Below are positions 1,098 through 16,100 of a stretch of 27,305 nt of DNA, piece after piece. The stretch is taken from NCBI GenBank assembly GCA_016839945.1, contig JAEOTE010000060.1, forward strand, positions 1 to 27,305, written 5' to 3'. The notes beneath the pieces are model-generated. The model made no database searches, had not been told where the DNA came from, and saw only the letters and a program-made list of their open reading frames with translations. The stretch is from Candidatus Heimdallarchaeota archaeon (GTDB taxonomy: Archaea; Asgardarchaeota; Heimdallarchaeia; Heimdallarchaeales; Heimdallarchaeaceae). A program made the position numbers and the translations under genes. Position 1 is the first letter of the stretch. Each line of letters begins with the position of its first letter.

Positions 1098-1682
1098 TTA
1101 ACTTAATGTTTCTTCTATTGCTTCAAAGATACTTTCATCAAAAATGGAAGTTGAAAAGGCATTTACATTATCATACTTATCAATTTCAAAAAATTCTGTG
1201 ATTTTATTAAATGTAAACTCTTTTTTCTCATCTGGAATTAAATCCATTTTATGTGTTAGAACAATAATATGAGCTCCTTTACTATATTCTTCAGCATTCC
1301 TTAAAGCTCTCTTAAAATAATTCTTAGCTTCTTCTAATTGATTAATTTTAGATGAATCAACAACAAAAAAGAGTGTTTTCAGATGTGAAAAAATGCTTTC
1401 TCTGAGAGCTACAAAAGCTTCTTCAAGATAAGTTATTTGTCCCCCTACATCGTATACATTCAATGAATAACCTGAGAAATCTATTAGTTTTCTTTGATAT
1501 CTAACAGTAGCTAAAACCTCTGATGTTTCTTCAGGTTTCAAACCTTCAAATACAACTTTAATGATTGAAGATTTTCCTGTTTGAGCTAATCCGATAAATA
1601 AGAGTTTATGTCCAAAATCTCCTTTATCTAGCTCTTTAGCAACAAATTCTTCTTGTTGCATTTCTTTCTCAAGATAACTCAT
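1098..1682 (-). CDS. Small GTPase, Rag/Gtr1-like, GTPase domain only
   Basis: G1 GLAQTGKSS, G2 ATV, G3 DVGGQ, G4 HKMD, G5 TSIFDESI; HKMD and TSIxDES are characteristic of Gtr1/RagA. No room for a C-terminal roadblock domain. Confidence 0.85.
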   Translation of the reverse strand: MSYLEKEMQQEEFVAKELDKGDFGHKLLFIGLAQTGKSSIIKVVFEGLKPEETSEVLATVRYQRKLIDFSGYSLNVYDVGGQITYLEEAFVALRESIFSHLKTLFFVVDSSKINQLEEAKNYFKRALRNAEEYSKGAHIIVLTHKMDLIPDEKKEFTFNKITEFFEIDKYDNVNAFSTSIFDESIFEAIEETLS

Positions 1683-1766: not shown

Positions 1767-3017
1767 ATGTCTAATATGACAGAAGCTTCTACTAATTTCG
1801 ATTTGTGTGTTATGTGTAAAACTTCTAGGATGCTATGTGGGAAAAGGAATTGTCCTTTACTACAGAAGTGGTCCAATGAGTATTCTGCAGAAAAACCAGT
1901 TATTACGAAATTAGATGAATCTTTTGCTCCTCCAGCTTTCTTTGTTGGTTGGTCTGGTTATCCAAGCATTAATGCTGGTCCTATGATAACAGCAAATAGG
2001 GTAGCTTCTGATGTTATTGATAATTCTGATAATTGGCTATCAAAACAACAAGAAGATATTGTGAAGATGAGGATTTCTTTATTTAGAACGAGATCGCGTA
2101 TTGATGTAAAAAGACCTTTAGATTCTGATATAATTCAACGTAGTCATGAATTACTCCTTGGGAAAAAACCTGTTGATGTTGAAGTTGATCTGGTTAAAGA
2201 TGTAATTCCTAAGATAGCTTTGGATGAGAGAATGGCTCCTCATGGCCCTATCGCTCCAATAAAGAAATTTAGAATTACTGAAAATCAATCACCCATTAAT
2301 GCAATTGAAAAGTCATATTATGACACCGATTTATTAGCTTCTGATGCAGTTCCTTATTTAGATTCTGAAAAACTAGATGTAAATACAATTACAAGAATTT
2401 TCAGTGCGGGGATGCTAGGCAGAAAAAAGAACAGAAGATTAGTGCCTACTAGATGGTCAATTGCAGCTGTTGATGATATTATTTCCAAAAATAATGTTGA
2501 AAAAATCAAGAAGTTTCAGGAAATTAACGAAATTAGAATTTTCACATATAAATTCTTTGGAAACCAGTTTGTAATAATTCTTCTACCAGATGTTTGGTCA
2601 TATGAAATGATTGAGGTTTGGTTTCAAGGTGCATTCATGAATCCTAGTATGAAAGATATTGGATTAGGAGATTGGGAACCTTATACAGGAAGATCGGAAT
2701 ACGCGTCGAATGTTACAGGGGCATATTATGCAGCTAGATTAGCAGTAACTGAATATTTACTTAAAATTCAGAGACAAGCAAAAGCAATTGTTTTGAGAGA
2801 AATTTCAGATGAATATAGATTTCCACTTGGTGTATGGGTGATTCGTGTTTCTGCAAGAGCAGCTATGCAAGAGAAACACTCTTTGGCTGATAATATTGAT
2901 ACTGCCTTTCAGCATCTAGAAAGATATATGAGATATCCTGTTGAATACTGGAAACATAAATCAAAGCTATATTATCTAACGAAAACACAAAAAAAGTTAG
3001 ATGAATTCTTCTTGTAG
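1767..3017 (+). CDS. nreA: Archaeal DNA repair protein NreA (PCNA-interacting)
   Basis: N-terminal CVMC..SRMLCG..NCP Cys cluster, PPAFFVGWSGYP, RRLVPTRWSIAAVDD, GAYYAARL, PLGVWVIR, and C-terminal PIP box QKKLDEFF. Confidence 0.92.
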   Translation: MSNMTEASTNFDLCVMCKTSRMLCGKRNCPLLQKWSNEYSAEKPVITKLDESFAPPAFFVGWSGYPSINAGPMITANRVASDVIDNSDNWLSKQQEDIVKMRISLFRTRSRIDVKRPLDSDIIQRSHELLLGKKPVDVEVDLVKDVIPKIALDERMAPHGPIAPIKKFRITENQSPINAIEKSYYDTDLLASDAVPYLDSEKLDVNTITRIFSAGMLGRKKNRRLVPTRWSIAAVDDIISKNNVEKIKKFQEINEIRIFTYKFFGNQFVIILLPDVWSYEMIEVWFQGAFMNPSMKDIGLGDWEPYTGRSEYASNVTGAYYAARLAVTEYLLKIQRQAKAIVLREISDEYRFPLGVWVIRVSARAAMQEKHSLADNIDTAFQHLERYMRYPVEYWKHKSKLYYLTKTQKKLDEFFL

Positions 3018-3039
3018 ATTATTAATATAGTGAATACTA

Positions 3040-4266
3040 ATGAGTTACAATATACACGAACTTTCTAAGGAAGAACTTCGGAGAATTGCAATAGTTGGAA
3101 CTCACCTTCACAGATGGCAAGACACAGGAGATAAGAGCGTTCAGAAAGTATTTCAGAAACAAGCTATGGTTCAATTAGATCCTCTTAATCCTGCTGGAAG
3201 AAATCACGATTTATTCTTCTTAGCTAGAATCCCCACTTACAAAGTTCACTCTTTTCAAAATATTATCTATCCCGAAAAACTAGTCTTTGAAGCCTATTTT
3301 CCTAATTTAATGGCAATATCTAAAGAACATCTACCAATCTTCTTACCAAGAATGAAAAGAGAAAACCTACATAAACACTATTTATCAAGAATTGAAAAAC
3401 TGGAAGCAACTAGAGAAGCAATACTTGAAGAAGTAGAACAAATTTTAGCAGAGAGAGGACCTTCTAAATCATCTGATTTCGAAGAATTAGCTGATATTAA
3501 ACCTGATTTTTATTTTTGGAAAGCAAGTAGATTATCAGGGATGGGACTTGAAGTTCTATGGTTATTAGGGAAAGCTGCAATTGTTGAAAGAGATGAGAAT
3601 TGGAGAAAATCTTACAATCTTATGAAGAATCATTTTGAAAGCGAATTACTAAAAGAAAGTGATCTTTCTGAAAAGGAGTTAAATTTCCAGAGATTCCTTA
3701 TCAAGCAAAAATCATATCCTTTGATGAATATGGGAAAAGTTACATTTACTAAATCCAACAAACTCTCAATTGGTAAGAAAGGCTGGCCGCATAGATTTTC
3801 TCCTGATTGGTTTGATACTAATAAAAACGAAAACAATTTGCACATCCTTAAAATAAAAGAGGACATCATTGGATATGCTGCTCCATCAAACTGGGAAGAA
3901 ATGCTCGATTATGAATTTGATGATGAGATGAGAGCTATAGCTCCTTTGGATCCTCTAATATGGGACAGAGAACTTACTTTGCGTATATTTGATTTTGATT
4001 ATGTGTGGGAAGTATACAAAGTTCCTAAAGACAGAAAATGGGGTTATTACGTTTATCCTTTACTATTTAAGGGAGAATTTATAGGAAGGATGGAAGCAAA
4101 ATATGATAAAAAATCACATGAATTATCTGTTTTTAATATTCAATTTGAAGATGGAAAAAAACCAGATTCCGAATTAAGCAAAGCATTCTATGACATGTTA
4201 GATAGATGGAAATCGATGTTAAGTGCAGATACAATTAAACACGATAAAAGTTCTTTAATTAAATAA
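3040..4266 (+). CDS. ycaQ: YcaQ/AlkZ-family (HTH_42) crosslink-repair DNA glycosylase, YcaQ-like QxD subtype
   Basis: VQLDP catalytic motif (Q45-L-D47), APLDPLIWDR, FDFDYVWEVY..P..RKWGYYVYPLL..G.FIGR. Confidence 0.85.
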   Translation: MSYNIHELSKEELRRIAIVGTHLHRWQDTGDKSVQKVFQKQAMVQLDPLNPAGRNHDLFFLARIPTYKVHSFQNIIYPEKLVFEAYFPNLMAISKEHLPIFLPRMKRENLHKHYLSRIEKLEATREAILEEVEQILAERGPSKSSDFEELADIKPDFYFWKASRLSGMGLEVLWLLGKAAIVERDENWRKSYNLMKNHFESELLKESDLSEKELNFQRFLIKQKSYPLMNMGKVTFTKSNKLSIGKKGWPHRFSPDWFDTNKNENNLHILKIKEDIIGYAAPSNWEEMLDYEFDDEMRAIAPLDPLIWDRELTLRIFDFDYVWEVYKVPKDRKWGYYVYPLLFKGEFIGRMEAKYDKKSHELSVFNIQFEDGKKPDSELSKAFYDMLDRWKSMLSADTIKHDKSSLIK

Positions 4267-4372
4267 GGATTTGTTTAATCTACTCTCCTTTTTATTTATA
4301 GATTTTGCTTAGGAATTTAATTAAAAGAACGAAAGATTTGGTTAATATTCTTTTTCTATAAAACAAATAACA

Positions 4373-4380
4373 TTTAAATA
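4373..4380 (+). promoter_or_regulatory. Putative TATA box of the accC-accB operon (leaderless)
   Basis: TTTAAATA ending 22 nt before the ATG at 4403, with A-rich sequence upstream. Confidence 0.55.
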
Positions 4381-4402
4381 AACCCTCACGAAATAATATT
4401 TC

Positions 4403-5905
4403 ATGCTCGAGAGTATCCTTATAGCCAATCGTGGTGAAATTGCTATTAGAATCATTCGAGCTTGTCGTTTATTGAATAAAAGATCAATAGTCTTGTTCTC
4501 AGAAGAAGACTCTTCTTCATTACATATTAAAATGGCAAATGAAGCCCACAATCTAGGTTCAGGATCAATTCAAGAAACTTACTTGAATATTGATAAAATA
4601 TTAGAAATTGCTAATTTCTCTAATGCTGATGCAATTCATCCCGGATATGGATTCCTTAGTGAAAGTGCAACTTTCGCAGAAAGAATTGAAAAGGAAGGTT
4701 TCAAATTCATTGGTCCTACTCCTGATGTACTCAATCAGCTTGGAGATAAAATGCAAGCTAAGAAATTAGCACAAGAAGTAGATATACCAACAGTACCTGG
4801 TTCAGATGGTTATGTGTCTAATGTTGATGAAGCTGAAGAAGTAGCTGAAGAAATAGGTTATCCTATTATCATAAAATCTGGATTCGGTGGGGGAGGAAAG
4901 GGAATGGAAATTGTAAATTCTGCTTCTTCTCTCGAAATAAGCTTATTGGGATGTCAAACAGTTTCTGAACGATTCTTTGGTAGAAAAGAAGTGTTCATTG
5001 AGAAATACATCAAAGCTCCTCGTCATGTAGAAGTTCAATTTCTATCAGATAATTATGGGAACACAATTCATCTAGGAGACAGAGAATGTTCAATTCAGAG
5101 AGCTCATCAGAAAATCATTGAAGAAGCACCATCATTTCTCTCACAAAGACAGAGGAATTCACTGGGAAAGAAAGTTTGTGCATTAGCTGATAATTTATCT
5201 TATAGGAATGCTGGACCAGCTGAATTTCTATGGAAAGATAAGAAATTATATTTTAATGAAGTTAATCCTAGAATACAAGTTGAACATCCTGTAACTGAAA
5301 TGATTACTGGAATAGATCTAATTGTACAGCAACTGAAAATTGCAGATAATGAAAAGTTAGAACTTAAACAAGAGGATATCAAATATAGAGGACATGCAAT
5401 AGAGTTTAGGATTAATGCAGAAGACCCTCTCAAATCATTTTATCCACAATCTGGTACTGTAACTAATTTAACAATTCCTGGTGGAAACAATGTAAGATTT
5501 GATACTTACCTTTACAACTCCTATAAACTACCTAATTGTTTTGATTCTCTAATTGGAAAATTGATAATCTGGGGAGAAAATAGGGAAGAGACTATTGAAA
5601 GATCAAGATTAGCTCTTCAAGAACTAACAATTTCTGGAATAACAACTAATATCCCACTTCATCAAGCTATTTTAGAAAATTATGAATTCCATTCAAGAAG
5701 AATAACTACAGATTTCCTTGAGATGCAAAAAATCCAAGAAATTATCTCACATTATGAAAAAATGAAATTAGCAGCAGCTTACAAGATTCATGATTTGAAT
5801 AAGGAACAAAGGAATCCTCTAATTATGAATAGAGAAAAACGTGCTTTGGAAGCAAATAGATGGAAAGAACAAAGCAAAATAGAGCAACAACGAAAATATC
5901 CTTAA
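4403..5905 (+). CDS. accC: Biotin carboxylase subunit of an acyl-CoA carboxylase
   Basis: LIANRGEIA, AIHPGYGFLSE, GGGGKGM, RECSIQR.HQK, EVNPRIQVEHPVTE, GHAIEFRINAEDP. Confidence 0.96.
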   Translation: MLESILIANRGEIAIRIIRACRLLNKRSIVLFSEEDSSSLHIKMANEAHNLGSGSIQETYLNIDKILEIANFSNADAIHPGYGFLSESATFAERIEKEGFKFIGPTPDVLNQLGDKMQAKKLAQEVDIPTVPGSDGYVSNVDEAEEVAEEIGYPIIIKSGFGGGGKGMEIVNSASSLEISLLGCQTVSERFFGRKEVFIEKYIKAPRHVEVQFLSDNYGNTIHLGDRECSIQRAHQKIIEEAPSFLSQRQRNSLGKKVCALADNLSYRNAGPAEFLWKDKKLYFNEVNPRIQVEHPVTEMITGIDLIVQQLKIADNEKLELKQEDIKYRGHAIEFRINAEDPLKSFYPQSGTVTNLTIPGGNNVRFDTYLYNSYKLPNCFDSLIGKLIIWGENREETIERSRLALQELTISGITTNIPLHQAILENYEFHSRRITTDFLEMQKIQEIISHYEKMKLAAAYKIHDLNKEQRNPLIMNREKRALEANRWKEQSKIEQQRKYP

Positions 5906-5934
5906 ACTTCTCAAAACACTGAGGAGACTGAACA

Positions 5935-6414
5935 ATGAAGAAAAAAGTCAATTTTAAAGGAACAGAATATATTGTTGAAATACTAAAAAATGGTCAAATT
6001 GAAATTGACGGTAAAGTTTTTTCTTCAACTATTTCACAAAAAATAGAGAATGTTTACAAAGTAGATGTAGATGGTCATCCTTTTACTATAGAGATTACTG
6101 GAAATAAGATATTTGTTGACGGAGAAATTTCTTCTTTATCAGTAAGACCTCATATAGAAAAGAAATCAATCACGGATGATAATCATTATAAAAAAGAAAT
6201 AAAAATTCAAGCACCAATTCCAGGAAAAATAAACAAAGTATTAGTCAAAGAGGGTGCATCAGTTAAAAAAAATCAAGAATTAATAATTCTTGAAGCAATG
6301 AAAATGAGAAATAGAATTTTTTCTCCATTTAAAGGAAAAGTGTTGAGAATTTTTGTCAAGGAAGACGAAAATGTCAATCAAGATCAAACATTGCTAGAAC
6401 TAGCTAGAAAGTAG
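5935..6414 (+). CDS. accB: Biotin carboxyl carrier protein
   Basis: IQAPIPGKI and LEAMKM (biotinyl-Lys123, codon 6301-6303); beta-rich N-terminal extension; SD GAGGAG at 5921-5926. Confidence 0.95.
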   Translation: MKKKVNFKGTEYIVEILKNGQIEIDGKVFSSTISQKIENVYKVDVDGHPFTIEITGNKIFVDGEISSLSVRPHIEKKSITDDNHYKKEIKIQAPIPGKINKVLVKEGASVKKNQELIILEAMKMRNRIFSPFKGKVLRIFVKEDENVNQDQTLLELARK

Positions 6415-6415
6415 T

Positions 6416-7171
6416 TTACAACGTTTCACTAAAAAAACTGATTATGTAATTTTTCATATCTTCAAAGTGTTTTTTATTAGAGAAATTATGATTTGCTCCT
6501 TCAATTATTTTAAAGTCTTTATCCAGACTAGAAGGAATTTTATCATACATCCTTTTTATCTGCTTTTCTGGTAATATTTCGTCTTTATCCCCTGTTATAA
6601 CTCGAATTGGAACTGCTAAAGAGGAAGCTTGCTTCATAGGATTATAATGTTGTGATTGAGATTGAAATACCTTTTTATGATTAACTTTCGGTAATCTCAT
6701 CTGATTGTCTCTTTGCCACAACTGTGTTAGTCCTTCAAAGATTTTCATTCTTGGTATTTTCTCAGTGTCATAAACAGGGGAACGTAAAGCAATACAACGA
6801 ATTCTAGTATCTCTTGTTGCATGACATAAAGCCATAGCCCCCCCAAAACTCTCGCCAAATAAACCAATTCTTGAAGAATCAATTTTCGGATGTTTTGCTA
6901 AGAAGGATATAATTTTATTGATATTTTCATGAGAGCTCATATACTCATATAAACCAGTACTTGAACGAACTCCAGTATAATCAAATGCGAAATATGCAAA
7001 ATTATTATTAATGAAATCTTGTGCTATTCGCTCTTTTTCTTTTTTAGGATCTGTTCCGGGCATACCATTTAATCTAATAATTAAAGGAAATTGTTCATCA
7101 GCTTTCGGGAGGTAAAGAAAGCCGTTTATTTTTTCCGATCTGAACTGAATTTCATGATTTTCTACTAACAT
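6416..7171 (-). CDS. Alpha/beta-fold serine hydrolase; candidate stand-alone thioesterase of the megasynthase
   Basis: GESFGG nucleophile elbow (Ser codon 6848-6850), GDKD acid, EGANH His. Start placed at ATG 7171 (SD AGGAG just upstream) instead of 7198; overlaps the megasynthase stop by 20 nt. The thioesterase role is inferred from context. Confidence 0.85.
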   Translation of the reverse strand: MLVENHEIQFRSEKINGFLYLPKADEQFPLIIRLNGMPGTDPKKEKERIAQDFINNNFAYFAFDYTGVRSSTGLYEYMSSHENINKIISFLAKHPKIDSSRIGLFGESFGGAMALCHATRDTRIRCIALRSPVYDTEKIPRMKIFEGLTQLWQRDNQMRLPKVNHKKVFQSQSQHYNPMKQASSLAVPIRVITGDKDEILPEKQIKRMYDKIPSSLDKDFKIIEGANHNFSNKKHFEDMKNYIISFFSETL

Positions 7172-10100
7172 TTTTCTTACTCCTATTTTCGATTTCACAA
7201 TAGCTGATAGAGTAATTCGTTGAAGTTTTATTTTCTAGTTTAAAGGAAGAGGATTCATATGGTATAGTTTCTTTGATAGTCTTTGAGAAATTAACGCGAT
7301 AATTTTCACTTTTCTTTTCTTTGAAGATTTCAACATCATGAAGACTTAAGTGTAATCCTTCACCAAGCGCTTTAGTAATAGCTTCTTTAATTGTCCAATA
7401 AACAGTTCCAAGATTTTCATCATTAGAGATGATTTCTCTTTCCTTTTCAGTAAATGCTTCCTTGTAGAAACCTTCATTCCTGTGTTCTATTCTTTCTATA
7501 TCTATTCCAACAAGTTTTTCACTTAATGTAGAGATTGCAAAGTCCCCTGCATGGGATATTGATAGATGTAAGTCACTTCTTTTTCCTTCCTTTTTATCAA
7601 AGATATATGGTTGACCTTTTGACATTTTTCTGACTTCAATTTCAAGAAGCACATCAGGATTTTCTTTGATTTCAGAATAGAGATCCTTAGTAGCTATAAC
7701 TCCGGATAGATACTCAATCTTTCGTTTTTTGTTTTTAATCTTATCAAATGAGGTTTTTTCAGTTGGTGATAGATATTTTAAAACAACTTCTGGTTCATTT
7801 GACAAATAATTTGAGACTGTTTTAATGGGAACAACTTTCATCTTCTTTTCAATCAAGTTTGAGGAAATCTCCCAATATTCTCTTAACTGATCTTCCTTTT
7901 CAGAGTTTGGTGATTCTTTTTGATAAGCCAATTGTGTATGAATAAGTGCTAATTCCTTAAGTTGAATTATTACATACTTATTCTCATCCAAAACTTCTAC
8001 ATCATAATAGCTATGAGTTTCATCTTTAGATTTGAATTTTGAAACAACATACTTGGGTGAAACTTTGCTTATTATTCTTAATTGTTTAATTTTGGATGGT
8101 AAAGAGGTCTTCTTATTAATAAGGTAATCATATAATCCAGCTGTCTGAAGCGCTGCTTCTATAGTTAGAGGATTAAGACTTTCTTCATAGTTTGGAATTG
8201 AAAATAGTTTTTCTTCAGGGATGTAAACTTTAGCTATAGCTTTCTCTCCAGTAAGCTCAACTAGTTCCTCTAATACTTGAAAGCTCTTTCCATGGAAGAA
8301 AACTGAGTAAATATCTTCCTTTGAAAGTAATTCGATCTTCTTTTCGTTTATCGATATCTTACTTCTTTTTCTACGTAGTTTCTTTGAACTAGCTCTAATT
8401 TCTGTAGTAAAATGCTCTGTTTCTACTTTTCTCTTTTCTTTGATTTTTGGGAAGAAATCAGACTTTAGTTTCATTCTCTCTTGTTTAACATCATATTCAA
8501 CATAAACCTCTTTAGACTGAACTCCTCTCTGTTTTATGGCAGTTTTGAATTCAATGTTTTCAAATGTATCAGGATTCTTTCCATTCACTAAAGAGTACAT
8601 CTCAGCAAACATCTCTAAACCCATCACTCCTGGAAAAATTGGAATTCCTTGTATTTGGTGATCTTTCAGATAGAGATCTATATTAGAATTAATAGCATAA
8701 TCACCACGATATATAGGTTCATGATATTCCATACCATGCATCATTGGATATTTGCTATCGGTTAATTTTGTTTGAGAAGGGATTAATTTATCAAATGGAC
8801 CTAATCCACAAGAAACAACAACTTCATTGTTTTCTTTATTTACAAAGAGTTTAACGAAAGTTTCTATTCCTCTGTTAAGAGGGATTGGTTCTAAACCTTG
8901 AGCTTTAAGAATTTCAAGAATTGATCCACGTGTAGCCATTCCAATTTGTCCCCAAGCTGACCAATCACATGCTATAGATGATATCCCTTGTTGATCAAGC
9001 ATCCAACAAAGTCTTGAGAGATATCCATTAGCATAGGAATAATCAACTTGACCAGGATTGCCAAATCTTCCAGCAATCGAAGTGAAACAAACCAACCTTT
9101 TCAATTTCTTTTGATTTACCGCATTTAGAATATTCCAGATTCCTTCAACTTTAACTGAAACGATAAGTTTAGAGAAATCAAATTTCTTCTTCTTAAATTG
9201 CTTTGATTCTTCTAGTCCAGCTCCATGAACAATGTGAGTAATTTCTGAGTCAAACTTCTTTTCAATTTTCTTGATAGCTTGTTTTACATCATTCTTTTTA
9301 GTAACATCAACTCTATAGTAATCCGCTTGAATACTCATTTTTTCGAGTATTTGGAGATTTTGAAGAACCTCAACACCAAATTGATATTGATTCCAATGTC
9401 TATCAATTAAAACAGGAGTAACTTTCTCTTCACTTTCTTTGAGTTTCTCAATAAGCTTCTGTTTTTTCTCCTTTAAATCATCTTCTGATAAGTTCAAATC
9501 CTCTTTACTAACTTTTGAGACATCTTCTATACCAAGGATAGCAACTTTAGGTTTTGAAATAGAGCATACAGCTTCTAGACATTTGAAGGTAATTCCCCGA
9601 CCTCCACCAGTTACAAGGAGTATATCATCTTTGTCAAGTTTAATTTCTGAAACAGAAGGAATCATATCATAAACAGATGAAAGAGATAAAGTATAACGTA
9701 GAGAGTTTTTGAATGAGATTTCAATGTTTTCATCCCAATATTCTAACTCCTCTAAAACCTCATTGATTTTGTCTGAATATACATGTTTAACCTTAATTTC
9801 AAACTCATGACCTAATGTTTTTATGAATCCAGAAACTCCTCCAGAGAGGGGATAAGAATCTCTTTCGAAACCAAAGAATTTCTCAGTTGAAATTACAAAT
9901 ATTCGTTGACTTGAATTTAGGTTTAGTGATTGAAAGAGTTTAAACAATCTTTCGTAATAGCTTTGATCAACGTATCCTGGATCATTGTTTAAATCTGGTA
10001 AAACTAGAATAAAATTATCATACTCTTTTTTACCAGTTTTATCAAAGGAAATCTCTTCTATATCTATTTTATCAAAATCAATTCCTTTTCTTACAAAGTC

Positions 10101-13100
10101 CTTCATAAGGAACCTAGTGAAGAAGGAATCAAAATTGATAATAGCATTTGAATGAGTGGTTAAATCTATTTTTTCCACATTATCTTTATCTAATGGGACA
10201 AGAGTTGGGACTAGTCTTTCAATTCTCAAAATATCTTCTTCTATTTTGTCCTCAATTACTTTAGGTTTTTCTATTTCTTGTTTTACAGTTTCAGTCTTCT
10301 CTTTTACTGTATTTTTTGAAATATATTCAACTATGTCATTGATTGTTCTAAATTCTGCTAAACTTACTGATTCATCTAAAGGTAAACTAAATTCATCTCT
10401 AATTTCACCAAATATCTCTGCTTGCTTGATTGTATCAATTCCTAGATCTTCTTCAAGATCCATCTCATTATCTATTAATTCAGGCTCGTACCCAGTAGTT
10501 CTTGAGACAACATTTTTTACAACCTCATTAAGTCCTAAACCTGATGGTTTTTCTTCTTTTACTTCAACTTCCTCTACTTTAGATATAATCTGCGTATTTT
10601 GTTGGATATAAGCTGCAATTTTTTCAGGTGTAGTGAAATCAGCTAGACTAACTGTTTCATCAAGTTCCAGATTCCATTTTTCTCTCACAGTCCCAAAGAT
10701 CTCAGCTTGTTTTACAGTATCGATTCCTAGATCTTCTTCAAGGTTCATGTCAGCTTCAATTAAACTTGGTTCATATCCAGTTTTTTCAGCAATCTCTCTT
10801 ATCACAACACTTAGAATATCAGAAGCAGGTTCTGAAGGAACTAATTCTTTTGTGGCTTGAATTTGTTTAATCTCTTCTAAGGAACTTTGTTCTAATTTAA
10901 GGACTCTTCCTTCTGTGAAAATTCCCTCTCTGGTTCCACTTATAGAGTTCAACCATTTTTCATATGAAATATTATCAAAACGATTTTCAAAGGTATTGAG
11001 TCTGAATGCAACAAAAGCTATTTGTGAACCAAATCCAGCAGCTAAACGAATTGCATATTGCATTCTTTGATTAAAACCTCTTGAGAAATTCAAATCAGTA
11101 AATTTAGGATCTATTTCTTTGATATTAGCTATAGGAGGGACTATTCCTTTTTCCATTGATTTTATTGCTAAAACTTCTTCAATTCCAGCCCCCATAGGGT
11201 GTCCAGTATAGCCTTTTGTATTCATAATAATCATTTTTGAAGCATTTGAACCGAAAACTTTTCTGAGTGATTCTATCTCTGCTTCTGCACTTCCTCCTCT
11301 AGCAGGAGTATAAGTTTCATGTGAGACAAACATACCCTCAGTTGCAATACTATCTCTTGAGATACCATGTTGTTTTTCTATGTTCTTTACAAATGTATCA
11401 AAGAGTTTAGCAATATGATTCACATCCAATCTTGAACCATGAAATGCACTATTTGCGAACTGAGTTCCAATAATGTCGACGATTGGTTTAACTCCTCTTT
11501 CCTGATAAGCTTCTTCTTTTTCCAATACTAATCCAGCTGCAGCTGATCCAATTACAAGTCCATGTCTATCTTTGCCAAAGGGAATAGCAGCTTCCTCCAC
11601 ATTTTTCTTTGTAGATACACCTCCAGCAGCTAGGAATCCAGCACCAATCCAAGGGAGTAGGTTTTCACTAGAAGCATCATCAGCTGCAACCACTATTACT
11701 CTCTCACATCTACCTGTTTTTATCCAATCTTCTGCAATCCCAATTGCTTGAGTTGTTGAAGCACAGGCAGCATTTATTTGTGTATTTGGTCCTTTAGCTT
11801 TTATCATCTGAGCAAATTGAGAATGTCCCATAGATAAAATTCTAAATAGGAATTCTCTACTAAATTGTCTTTCTTCTTTTGTTGTTAGACCTTCAGTAAC
11901 CTCTTTAATTAGTTGATCATATCCTGGAAAAGCTGAAGCAAAAACTATACCTGTAGTTTCTTGAAGATTTGCTGGTAACGCCCATTCTCCTTCCAAGATT
12001 TTACCTGTTGATGTTTTTATCTTAGACCTTACTAAGGGAATTCCAGCGTCTTTAAGAGCTTCAAGTCCAGCACAGATTGCAAGTTGAAAAGTTATATCTA
12101 ATGCATTCAAAAATTTAGGATTGATACCATAGTCGTTTATTGGGTCAAACTTTCCAATTTGTCCAGCAATCTGAATTACTTTTGATAAATCATCAATATT
12201 TTCAAATGATGCATTTCCATCTGCAGACTTTACTAATCGAACAATGTTCTTATCTAAAATTTCTTTCTTTAGCTCATCATCAATCTCGTCAATTAGGTTG
12301 ACTCCACTTAACAAGAGACTTATATTTTCATCATCAAAGACATTCCTGTTTTTTCCAGGAATCCCCATTCCCACTCCTGTTACACCTATAGAACTAGACA
12401 CTAATTCAACTGAAGAATAACTTAGGGATTTTTTATCTACACCAGTATAAGTTGAATATAACTCATACCCTTTTCTTAAGAAATCATGAAGTTGATCCCT
12501 ATTACGTAGAATGTATTGGTTGAAGTCCATATCAGCTGCTGGTTTAATAATTTCCTTCCTTGGAATAATTTGTTCTTCAACTTTCTTAGGTTGCATCTTT
12601 CGTTGAACTATCAGCTCTTTTATTTGATCAATAGTTTGAGATAATTTCTCATCTTCTTTTTCTTTAGGAGTTAGCGTATATAATACTTGAATATCTTTTT
12701 CTTGTTTGAGAATATCCTTAGCAAAAGAGAAGAGAGCTTTCTTTGGACCAACTTCTACAAATATCCTTCCACCATCCTTGTATATATTCTCAATTTCCTC
12801 TACCCATTTAACTGAAGAACAAATCTGCTCTATTAACAGATTCTGAATTAACTCTGGTTGAGATGGGTATTCCATTCCAGTTACATTACTATAAACATCA
12901 ATTTTAGGAGGATTGAATGTTAATCCTAGAAGAACTTTCTTCATTTCTTCCTCTACTTGCTTGACAATGCCAGAATGAAAAGCTGTAGAAACACGTAGTT
13001 TTTTAGCAGTTATACCTTGTTTACTAGCTTCTTCAATAAGGGTTTCAATTCCAGAAAGACTTCCAGAAACAACAGTTTGATTTATTGAATTATAATTGGC

Positions 13101-16100
13101 AATTGTTACATATTCTTTTTTAACAGAATCAACAAGTTCCTCAACTTGTTTAATTGGTGCTAATACTGCTGCCATCGCTCCTTCAGCTTCCTTCCCTGCT
13201 TTACTCATTGACCTTCCTCTTTCAATGACTGCTTTTAATCCATCACTAAAAGAAAGTACACCTGCAGCAACAAGAGCTGCATATTCACCTAGACTGTGAC
13301 CAGCAACAATTGAAGGTGAAATGCCATGTTCTCGCAGATATCTGTAAATTGCAATATCAACTACAAACAAAGCTGGTTGTGTAAATTTAGTATCAGTTAA
13401 TCTTTGAGAACTAGCTTCTTGAGTTAAATCTTCAGAACCAAAGATAATCTCCTTTAAACTGAAGGTACAATATTCAAACCATATATTTTCAGCTTCCTCA
13501 AATGTATCTGCAACAATTTTAGATGTTTCACATAAATTCTGAAGCATTCCTAAATATTGACTTCCTTGACCTGTAAACATGAAACATATTGGATTTTCTT
13601 CAGAATCTTCTAGAGTTGCTATGCTCTTTGGTACTGCAGCTGTTTGAACACTTGAGATTTTAGCTTCATGAATGTAATCTGTTTTTTGAGGATCATATTC
13701 TTCAAGAATTGCATGATAATTTGTTCCTCCAAATCCAAATGAAGAGACTCCAGCTCGTCTAATCTCTTGTGAATCAACTTTCCATTCCAAAGGTTCAGTA
13801 TTGACATAAAAAGGAGATTCTTCCCAATTAATTCTTGGATTGAGTTTTTCAACATTAATAGATGGAGGTAGTATTTTATTATGAATAGCTAAAGATGTTT
13901 TGATAAGAGCTGCTACACCTGCTGCACTTTTTAGATGACCAATTTGACTTTTGATTGAACCAATAGCTAATTTTTCTTTTCTTCCTTCATCTTTGAAAAT
14001 TTCTTCTAGAACTTGTAACTCCACTGCATCCCCAACAGTTGTAGATGTCCCATGTGCTTCAATAAGCTGAATATCAGTTGTATCCAACTTAGCTTTATCT
14101 AATGCTCTTAGAACAGACTGTTTTTGTCCATCTGGATTAGGAGCGGTAATTCCTTTCCCTTTTCCATCTGAAGAAGATCCTATAGCTGAGATTATTGAAT
14201 ATATTTTATTCCCATCTCTTATCGCATCTTCTAATCTTTTCAGAACTAGAAAACCACAACCTTCTCCCATAACAAATCCATCTGCTTTCTCATCAAAAGG
14301 TCTTGAACCTTCAGCAGATAAAGCACCAATTTTACTGAATTTTACATATGATGTAACATCCATTGATCTATCTGCTCCTCCAACCAGAACAACATCGAAA
14401 TCATGTGTCTTTAGAGCATTAACAGCTGTATCTAAAGATGCTACACTTGATGCACAAGCTGCATCTGTAGTCATCGACTTCCCTGTAAGATTGTAGATAT
14501 TAGCTATCCGTCCTGCAATTACATTAGATAATTCTCCTGGCATAGAATCTTCTGTTATTGTAGGAAACTTACTCTTGTATGAGGTTCTCAGTTTTTCGAT
14601 AAAAGCATCTTGATCTTCTTTGGATAATTGATCAAATATCTCATTCTGTTTGATTTCTTGAATTATTTCTGGAACGAAAATTCTTCTATTTGTAGAACGT
14701 TGAATTTCACCACCTATTGCATTACCTACAATTACTGCGATTGGTAATCGATTCTTTCCATCAGTTGGAATCCCTGCATCTCTTAAAGCCTGACCTGCAG
14801 CGTCTAGAGACCATTGTTGAACAGCATCCATTTTATTTGCAATAGTTGGTGGAATCCTATATTCAATTGAATTAAATTTGTAGTCTTTTATGAAAGAACC
14901 AATTTTTGAATAAGTTTTATCTTCTGCTTTAGGATCAGCATCATAATAAAGCTCTGGCTCCCATCTTTCATGAGGAATTTCTGTAATGGAATATTTTTTA
15001 TTAACAATATTTTGCCAGTAAGTTTCGATATTTGGAGAATCAGGAAAGATACATCCTAATCCAATAATAGCAACTCGACCTTCAATGATTGTCTGATCAG
15101 CTGTTTCAATTGAAGAATCTCCAATCTCTAGACTTTCGATTAGCTTTCTTAAATCAATGATTGTTTTTGAAAGGTAATTCTTTCCAGCTTCAACTACATC
15201 AAAATGGAGATCATCAATTCTGATAACGTTTCTTTTAATACTTGCTATCTCTCCTGTCATGAAACAACCTAGTGCTTCGTGTTCTTTCTTAGTTACAGGA
15301 ATAAATTGAGTTGTTTCACCACCAGGAACATGATCGTGATTCCATTTTTCACCCTTAGTTGCAATCCTTAATGCTCCAAGATTATCTTTCTCAAATTCCT
15401 TTTTCCTTTTTGAAATTGGTTGTTTATCTCTTAATCTTTCAAATTCCTTTTCATTTGTAGTATCAACAAAAGCAGTTGGTAAAACCCTTGCTCTTGTATT
15501 GACTGTTGTCCCTATAACTTTGGTTTTGAAAGAGTTTAGTATTTTTTCTTGGTATATTAAGGAAAGTGCTTTTGTTCTAACAATTTCTTCTGTGAATAGA
15601 TATGCTGTTCCAATTTGTAGAGCTGGTGTAATGACATCTAAATGAGTTCCTATCATAGCAGCAATCATTGAAGATCCTAATTCATCCCCTATTCCACCTG
15701 CGAAAATAACATTTACTTTTTCCCTTATATCAGCTCTAATACTGTCGGTATATTGCAGTATTCTTTCCCAAAGAGTTAATGATGTCTGAGTACCAATATG
15801 TCCTCCACATTCACTTCCTTCTAAGATTAGGTTATTTATGTTATTCTTAATTGCATCCTTAAATAGCGAGAGTGCTGGAGTATGAAGGAGTGTTTTAAAA
15901 CCAAGCTTCTTTATTCTTGAAGCTAAATTTACAGTTCCAGCTGCAACAAGACATATAGGAGTTTCATATTTCTTAAGTAAAGCAATGTGTTCTTCTCTTC
16001 TATCTTTCATTAAATTTAGTCCAATTATTCCTCCTCCATATGAATAACTTGGAGCAACTGTTTTCTTGATTTCAACAAAAAGCTCTTCAGCTTCTTCTTT

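What the first reader, a model, noticed from the sequence alone, without database searches (positions are those of the whole stretch)
10311..10823. Both ACP domains carry Thr instead of the phosphopantetheinylated Ser
Seen: the motifs read DLGIDTVKQAE and DLGIDTIKQAE, with different Thr codons (ACT at 10716-10718, ACA at 10431-10433), which argues against a sequencing error or a single chance mutation. No other ACP is visible in the window. Established: carrier proteins are modified on the Ser of GxDS (PfaA ACPs read LGIDSIKR). Inference: since the catalytic domains and the PPTase look intact, this may be phosphopantetheinylation on threonine, a non-canonical modification. Otherwise the ACPs are inert and another carrier (CoA or a trans ACP) is used.
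Basis: partly seen in the sequence, partly recalled or inferred. Interest (0 to 1): 0.88.

Follow-up and report, generated by a model that had tools for sequence, protein, structure and literature searches.

The report
Threonine-type carrier domains, Asgard synthase
Both carrier domains of a giant fatty-acid/polyketide-type enzyme in an Asgard archaeon have threonine where textbook carrier proteins have the serine that holds their cofactor arm. This is the conserved norm in a large enzyme family that brings its own arm-attaching enzyme, so threonine is probably a natural attachment site that nobody has yet measured.

Summary
Confirmed. Thr2170 and Thr2265 of a 3357-aa ER-KS-AT-KS-ACP2-KR-DH-PPTase synthase sit exactly at the phosphopantetheine (Ppant) serine position, by alignment and by model. 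This is not a local mutation. Among homologues picked by the KS2 domain, 345 of 356 intact ACP sites are Thr, 11 are Ser and none is anything else. All four Thr codons occur, and the Ser forms are several independent reversions nested among Thr lineages. AT, both KS, KR, DH and PPTase catalytic residues are conserved family-wide. This genome (88% complete) and a single-contig all-Thr Asgard genome hold no Ser-type carrier and only the fused PPTase. Best reading (0.75): the cognate Sfp-type PPTase loads Ppant on threonine. That is inferred, not shown; E. coli ACP S36T is non-functional in vivo. The enzyme is a fused archaeal form of the 'Type R' lipid synthases (Shulse & Allen 2011), whose Thr I found described nowhere in the papers searched. 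It occurs in 51 of 301 Asgard genomes. The scan noted the same feature before on other genomes (8 notes). One intact-mass experiment would decide it.

The parts
10596..10823 (-). ACP domain 1 (aa 2135-2210), Thr2170 at the Ppant site
10716..10718 (-). Thr2170 codon ACT
10311..10529 (-). ACP domain 2 (aa 2233-2305), Thr2265 at the start of helix II
10431..10433 (-). Thr2265 codon ACA
7152..17225 (-). 3357-aa iterative type I FAS/PKS: ER'-ER-KS1-AT-KS2-ACP-ACP-KR-DH-PPTase
7191..7829 (-). Fused Sfp-type PPTase (H3225, D3242, E3244, W3277, K3280, E3281); the only PPTase found in the genome
13665..15077 (-). KS1 (C924, H1058, H1097)
12642..13589 (-). Acyltransferase (S1311, R1336, H1417), malonyl-type AFH motif
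10992..12404 (-). KS2, family-specific; keeps C1821, H1969, H2009 (the 'CLF' of Type R)
8856..9653 (-). KR (K2692, S2716, Y2729, N2733)
7941..8753 (-). Double-hotdog DH (H2856, E3023)
15129..17168 (-). Two FabK/NMO-like ER barrels; the first lacks the catalytic His, the second has H476
6416..7171 (-). Alpha/beta serine hydrolase overlapping the synthase end by 20 nt; candidate release enzyme
   Evidence: same position in a Lokiarchaeota cluster
17228..18805 (-). Carboxyltransferase subunit, 2 nt upstream of the synthase
4403..5905 (+). Biotin carboxylase
5935..6414 (+). Biotin carboxyl carrier protein
18878..19669 (+). Biotin-protein ligase

Best explanation
The two domains are working acyl carriers whose 4'-phosphopantetheine arm is attached through a phosphodiester to the Thr hydroxyl. 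Proposed cycle: (1) the flanking BirA, BC, BCCP and CT genes make malonyl-CoA (gene identities shown, substrate inferred); (2) the fused Mg-dependent Sfp-type PPTase transfers Ppant from CoA to Thr2170 and Thr2265 (inferred); (3) AT loads malonyl on the arm's thiol; (4) KS1/KS2, KR, DH and the FabK-type ER run iterative reductive elongation (active sites shown intact, product inferred to be a fatty acyl or lipid chain); (5) the coupled hydrolase releases the chain (inferred). Thr is ancestral in the family and has reverted to Ser several times. A possible reason for keeping Thr is that it makes the ACP/PPTase pair orthogonal to host AcpS (speculative).
For: Position identical to the Ppant Ser. 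Thr fixed across phyla in ACP-independent samples: 241 T and 3 S in KS2-selected genome loci with all four codons; 345 T, 11 S, 0 other in 50%-cluster representatives. Decayed ACP copies in the same proteins lose the whole motif instead (9 cases). Ser variants use both TCN and AGY codons and fall in at least four separate, nested places on a KS1 tree rooted on a PfaA-type protein; parsimony on KS2 gives up to 7 changes. Some synthases mix Ser and Thr copies (S-T-S), and their PPTase is identical to this one at all 24 conserved positions checked, so one enzyme faces both residues. No other Ser or Cys is conserved in the domain, and 149 of 526 distinct domains contain no Ser at all. The AT, whose role is transfer from CoA to a Ppant thiol, keeps Ser/Arg/His in 115-116 of 117 homologues. 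PPTase catalytic residues are 98-100% conserved over 97 domains. A PPTase is fused or nearby in 29 of 36 loci with at least 8.5 kb of downstream DNA. No Ser-type carrier and no second PPTase were found in this genome or in single-contig G213, so the PPTase has no other visible substrate.
Against: No biochemical demonstration was found. E. coli ACP S36T is described as not modifiable and cannot replace acpP (PMC3340395), so Thr is a poor acceptor for at least AcpS. The Thr/Ser-only pattern is not unique to this site: another conserved Thr of the domain (TGY, -22) also changes mostly to Ser (T331, S7, M2, A1). I found no PPTase residue that tracks Thr versus Ser and would explain how the extra methyl is accommodated. 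The genome is 88% complete, so a missing gene is possible here (less so for G213).
Confidence: 0.75

Rival explanations
1. The Thr domains are apo, non-covalent modules (scaffold, docking or acyl-CoA holders), and the catalytic domains work on CoA thioesters.
For: S36T blocks E. coli ACP. An ACP-independent, CoA-based fatty acid pathway is reported in archaea (10.1101/2024.07.05.601840). Thr at a helix start can be structural (control).
Against: It leaves the conserved AT and PPTase active sites without a job, and the PPTase has no other carrier in G000 or G213. Ser-only members with the same architecture and a fused PPTase exist (P0160).
Confidence: 0.08
2. The Thr carries a different covalent group, or is acylated directly as an oxygen ester, or the PPTase transfers something other than Ppant.
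For: Only hydroxyl residues occur at the site. KS2 has an unusual, invariant HE-T motif, so the family chemistry is not standard.
Against: The PPTase is a regular Sfp homologue (E 1e-21) with the CoA-binding His and Mg ligands. Established knowledge: decarboxylative condensation needs a thioester on a long arm to reach the KS site.
Confidence: 0.07
3. A separate Ser-type ACP acting in trans is the real carrier and the PPTase's substrate.
For: A free ACP-like gene exists in this genome and genus. Bacterial hosts have many Ser carriers. Some other Asgard genomes have an AcpS-FkbH-like-Ser-ACP cluster.
Against: The free ACP-like protein has Glu or Lys at the site and no conserved hydroxyl. G213, G054 and G207 show no carrier outside the synthase with two models for G213 and G054 and one or two for G207. 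The Ser-ACP cluster was not found in this genome.
Confidence: 0.05
4. Degenerate gene, sequencing error, or recoding of Thr codons to Ser.
For: Single MAG; raw reads could not be examined.
Against: Intact 3357-aa frame, two different codons, Thr in hundreds of genomes across many phyla with all four codons.
Confidence: 0.01

Closest known systems
'Type R' secondary-lipid synthase cluster (Shulse & Allen 2011, PMC3098273)
   Same: Core order KS-MAT-second KS-like domain-tandem ACP-KR, a downstream PPTase with the hShxH motif, and a link to carboxylase genes. Two closed Roseiflexaceae genomes (contigs of 5,723,298 and 5,801,598 bp; from memory these are the paper's R. castenholzii and RS-1) carry the orthologue: KS1 50% and KS2 49-50% identical, with 5 and 6 ACPs, all Thr, and a PPTase gene next door.
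   Different: Archaeal host; ER barrels and PPTase fused into one chain; 2 ACPs rather than 3-6. The 'CLF' is a KS with a full Cys-His-His triad, and a DH follows the KR. The paper never mentions threonine, serine or archaea, and the product is uncharacterised.
PfaA of PUFA synthases (TIGR02813)
   Same: Related KS1 (42% to a PfaA-type protein), tandem ACPs with the same surrounding motif, FabK/PfaD-type ER.
   Different: Score 884.9 is below the cut-off of 1010.1. PfaA-type ACPs have Ser, and there is no KS2 counterpart. A PKS-type DH replaces the FabA-type DHs.
Canonical ACP/PCP with Sfp- or AcpS-type PPTase
   Same: Four-helix ACP fold with Gly-x-Asp and a hydrophobic +1 residue at the start of helix II; Sfp-type PPTase with intact catalytic residues.
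   Different: Acceptor is Thr; E. coli S36T is non-functional.
Sulfolobus ACP-independent fatty acid synthase complex (10.1101/2024.07.05.601840)
   Same: Archaeal route to acyl chains.
   Different: That system is CoA-based with separate enzymes. The preprint states that archaea seem to lack FAS I and nearly all lack ACP and ACP synthase; this cluster is a counter-example in 51 of 301 Asgard genomes.

Membership tests
Acyl carrier protein (PF00550) | Helical-bundle ACP fold and profile match | tested here: met
   Above the Pfam cut-off; model pLDDT 90.7, TM about 0.8 to solved ACPs
Acyl carrier protein (PF00550) | Serine at the start of helix II (G-x-D-S) | tested here: not met
   Thr in both domains
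Acyl carrier protein (PF00550) | Covalent 4'-phosphopantetheine (holo form) | not testable with these tools
   Needs mass spectrometry
Type R secondary-lipid synthase | KS-MAT-CLF-ACP(n)-KR order in one gene | tested here: met
   Same order, with 2 ACPs; the 'CLF' slot is KS2
Type R secondary-lipid synthase | KS groups with Type R exemplars rather than PfaA | tested here: met
   KS1 50% and KS2 49-50% to the two closed Roseiflexaceae genomes against 42% and no match to a PfaA-type protein; same side of a tree with one outgroup.
Type R secondary-lipid synthase | Downstream PPTase with the hShxH motif | tested here: met
   Present but fused; LSISH at aa 3221-3225
Type R secondary-lipid synthase | 3-6 ACP domains and a separate PPTase gene | tested here: not met
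   2 ACPs and a fused PPTase; hence a variant of the type
PfaA / PUFA synthase | TIGR02813 above cut-off | tested here: not met
   884.9 against 1010.1
PfaA / PUFA synthase | Ser-type ACPs and pfaB/C/D partner genes | tested here: not met
   Thr ACPs; no further KS in the genome
Sfp-type PPTase | Pseudo-dimeric domain of about 220 aa with G-x-D-x-E, W-x-x-K-E and the CoA-binding His | tested here: met
   best solved match Sfp, E 1e-21
Sfp-type PPTase | Transfers Ppant to a carrier protein | not testable with these tools
   Needs an enzyme assay
Fungal or mycobacterial FAS I | Domain order and AcpS-type PPTase of FAS I | tested here: not met
   Different order, Sfp-type PPTase, PfaA-like KS; no tree with FAS I was built

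The most novel reading that the evidence does not exclude
A natural threonine-linked phosphopantetheine, written by a dedicated PPTase clade that forms an ACP/PPTase pair orthogonal to AcpS, in a self-contained ACP-dependent type I synthase that gives many Asgard archaea their own route to fatty acyl chains.
Probability: 0.35. Interest if true: 0.88.

Novelty: new variant of a known kind. Interest (0 to 1): 0.74.

Why it matters
Serine is treated as the invariant Ppant acceptor in FAS, PKS and NRPS carriers, and by that rule Thr domains would be scored as inactive. A large family (798 representatives of 50% clusters match KS2 at E 1e-30 or better; more than 600 pattern hits in species genomes) that uses Thr would change that rule. 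It could also supply an orthogonal carrier/PPTase pair for protein labelling and pathway insulation. The natural Ser revertants and mixed S-T-S synthases are ready-made controls. The host adds weight: archaea are said to lack ACP-dependent type I synthases, yet this one is in 22 of 28 relatives in the window's family and in other Asgard classes, which bears on the lipid-divide question. The test is cheap and decisive.

Tried and rejected
Ten literature searches found no description of Thr-linked Ppant or of this motif; most subscription papers are not held, so this is not proof of novelty. A PPTase review could not be opened. From memory, unverified: E. coli AcpS was reported to modify S36T in vitro at a few percent of the wild-type rate; I could not confirm this and did not use it. 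The first homologue set was selected on the ACP itself and is biased, so I repeated the count with KS2-selected sets. No PPTase residue tracked Thr versus Ser (few independent Ser lineages). Gln at +3 seemed to follow Thr, but one genome has Thr with Ile at +3, so strict coupling was rejected. Ser reversions look enriched in archaea (2 of 10 against 0 of 65 loci, Fisher p 0.016), but kin are not independent and one Ser form is bacterial-looking, so this is only a hint. The complex prediction of ACP with PPTase was not run: it would probably pass by likeness to solved pairs and cannot tell Ser from Thr. No PlsC-type acyltransferase was found in the genome, so use of the product in phospholipids is unsupported.

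Full report
OBSERVATION. The finding lies in a 10,074-nt ORF (7152-17225, minus strand; 3357 aa). Pfam and motif analysis give the order ER'-ER-KS1-AT-KS2-ACP-ACP-KR-DH-PPTase. The Thr aligns without gaps with the Ppant serine of solved ACPs. An AlphaFold model of ACP2 (pLDDT 90.7) puts it at the first position of helix II and matches solved ACPs at TM about 0.8. It is therefore the true homologous position.

HOST AND NEIGHBOURHOOD. The nearest named KS2 relatives are Heimdallarchaeota (75%) and Ca. Heimdallarchaeum aukensis (62%). A genome listed as 'same family' has the contig length of H. aukensis, so the window comes from a Heimdallarchaeaceae-type Asgard archaeon (inference). GC of the gene (33%) matches the genome (32%). 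The synthase is flanked by biotin ligase, carboxyltransferase, a serine hydrolase, BCCP and biotin carboxylase. The same gene set in nearly the same order surrounds the homologue in a Lokiarchaeota genome. The synthase was found in 51 of 301 genomes of the phylum and in 22 of 28 family relatives.

THR IS A FAMILY TRAIT. Of the best 120 homologues of the ACP region, 119 are Thr-type (600 of 615 domains); the exception is a PfaA-type protein with eight Ser ACPs. That set was selected on the ACP, so I resampled with the family-specific KS2 domain. Genome loci from Acidobacteriota, Actinomycetota, Chloroflexota, Myxococcota, Thermoplasmatota, Asgard and others gave 241 Thr and 3 Ser, with codons ACG 119, ACC 107, ACA 9 and ACT 6. 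Representatives of 50%-identity clusters gave 345 Thr, 11 Ser and no other residue among 356 domains that keep Asp at -1 and Lys/Arg at +2; nine decayed copies had lost the whole motif. All eight same-genus synthases examined are Thr/Thr. Thr-type ACPs also appear at other positions of the chain (before KS1, after KS1, after AT) and keep Thr.

SER REVERTANTS. Ser forms use both codon boxes (AGT, AGC, TCA, TCT, TCG). On a KS1 tree rooted on the PfaA-type protein they sit in at least four separate places inside Thr lineages (one outgroup, a long branch). Parsimony on a KS2 tree gives up to 7 changes, some poorly supported. Ca. Heimdallarchaeum synthases are mixed (Ser-Thr-Ser), and their fused PPTase matches this one at all 24 conserved positions checked. 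The simplest reading is that the site needs a hydroxyl and that one PPTase type serves both residues. Caveat: another conserved Thr of the domain also changes mostly to Ser (T331, S7, M2, A1), so this pattern supports but does not prove a nucleophile role.

THE CARRIER-DEPENDENT MACHINERY IS KEPT. Among about 115 homologues, KS1 and KS2 keep Cys-His-His, AT keeps Ser-Arg-His, KR keeps its Lys-Ser-Tyr-Asn set and DH its His and acidic residue. PPTase Mg ligands, catalytic Glu, Lys and the CoA-binding His are 98-100% conserved over 97 domains, and Sfp is the best solved match. A PPTase is fused or nearby in 29 of 36 loci with at least 8.5 kb of downstream DNA; several lie at the edge of the fetched DNA, so this may be an undercount. 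No alternative Ser or Cys is conserved in the ACP, and 149 of 526 distinct domains have no Ser at all.

NO TRANS CARRIER. In this genome (88% complete) the fused domain is the only PPTase found, and the only other ACP-like protein (C119) has Glu at the site. Its relatives in the genus have Glu or Lys there. In single-contig G213 (five ACPs, all Thr) two ACP models find nothing outside the synthase and the fused PPTase is the only one. A PPTase kept intact with no Ser substrate is the strongest argument here. Other Asgard genomes hold an unrelated AcpS, FkbH-like and Ser-ACP cluster, not found in this genome.

MECHANISM. Shown: position, conservation, intact active sites, gene context, absence of other carriers in the genomes searched. 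Inferred: the fused PPTase attaches Ppant to the Thr hydroxyl; AT loads malonyl made by the neighbouring carboxylase; KS1/KS2, KR, DH and ER elongate iteratively; the hydrolase releases a fatty acyl or lipid product. Against: E. coli ACP S36T is described as not modified and cannot support growth (PMC3340395), and I found no PPTase residue that explains Thr tolerance. The same fact suggests a purpose, insulation from host AcpS, which is speculative. Confidence 0.75.

COMPARISON. The enzyme works like a tandem-ACP iterative lipid synthase and belongs with 'Type R' of Shulse and Allen 2011 (PMC3098273). Two closed Roseiflexaceae genomes, whose lengths match the paper's exemplars from memory, carry all-Thr orthologues with an adjacent PPTase. 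It differs from the described type by the fused ER and PPTase, two ACPs, a catalytically complete second KS and an archaeal host. It is not PfaA (below cut-off). The paper does not mention threonine, and my searches found no report of Thr-linked Ppant. A 2024 preprint states that archaea seem to lack FAS I and that nearly all lack ACP.

EARLIER NOTES. The scan has reported the same trait on other genomes (unchecked AI notes). I took the 'Type R' label from them as a lead and tested it. My counts, trees and genome searches were made here.

VERDICT. Real and conserved, probably an undescribed acceptor residue for a textbook modification; a new variant of a known kind. Interest 0.74.

Noticed in passing
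L002:788-1078 (+) = G000:C119: Free-standing ACP-like protein (TIGR00517 E 2e-15, below cut-off) with no acceptor hydroxyl (Glu at the site). Common in the genus with a variable site, so probably a non-covalent adaptor.
   Followed up: partly
window 10992-12404 (-): The second KS, called a chain-length factor in Type R, keeps Cys-His-His in all homologues and has a near-invariant Glu right after the first His. Stand-alone 500-560-aa homologues occur in several Asgard genomes.
   Followed up: partly
L140, L141, L143: Other Asgard genomes carry a separate cluster of AcpS, an FkbH-like protein (judged by eye from its sequence) and a Ser-type ACP, next to a putative deacetylase and an acyltransferase-like gene.
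   Followed up: partly
L179 (G026, H. aukensis) 2394-6379 and 11993-17001: Two near-exact tandem duplications (1993 bp at 100%, 2314 bp at 99.9%) split the synthase frame and duplicate the PPTase end, hydrolase and BCCP; probably assembly artefacts.
   Followed up: partly
P0001, P0026, P0075, P0104, P0132, P0146, P0147: Some synthases carry extra decayed ACP copies without the motif beside intact Thr copies.
   Followed up: partly
L195 (P0224) and L197 (P0209): Two Ser-type family members have no PPTase gene in the DNA fetched around them; P0209 is a truncated KS2-ACP protein of 697 aa kept in 7 cluster members.
   Followed up: partly
window 15129-17168 (-): Two tandem FabK-like barrels; the first lacks the catalytic His, suggesting an internal pseudo-dimer. 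Most bacterial members lack a fused ER.
   Followed up: partly
window 1098-1682 (-) and 1767-3017 (+): Small Ras/Rag-like GTPase and an Nre-like DNA repair gene flank the cluster (judged by eye from the translation).
   Followed up: no
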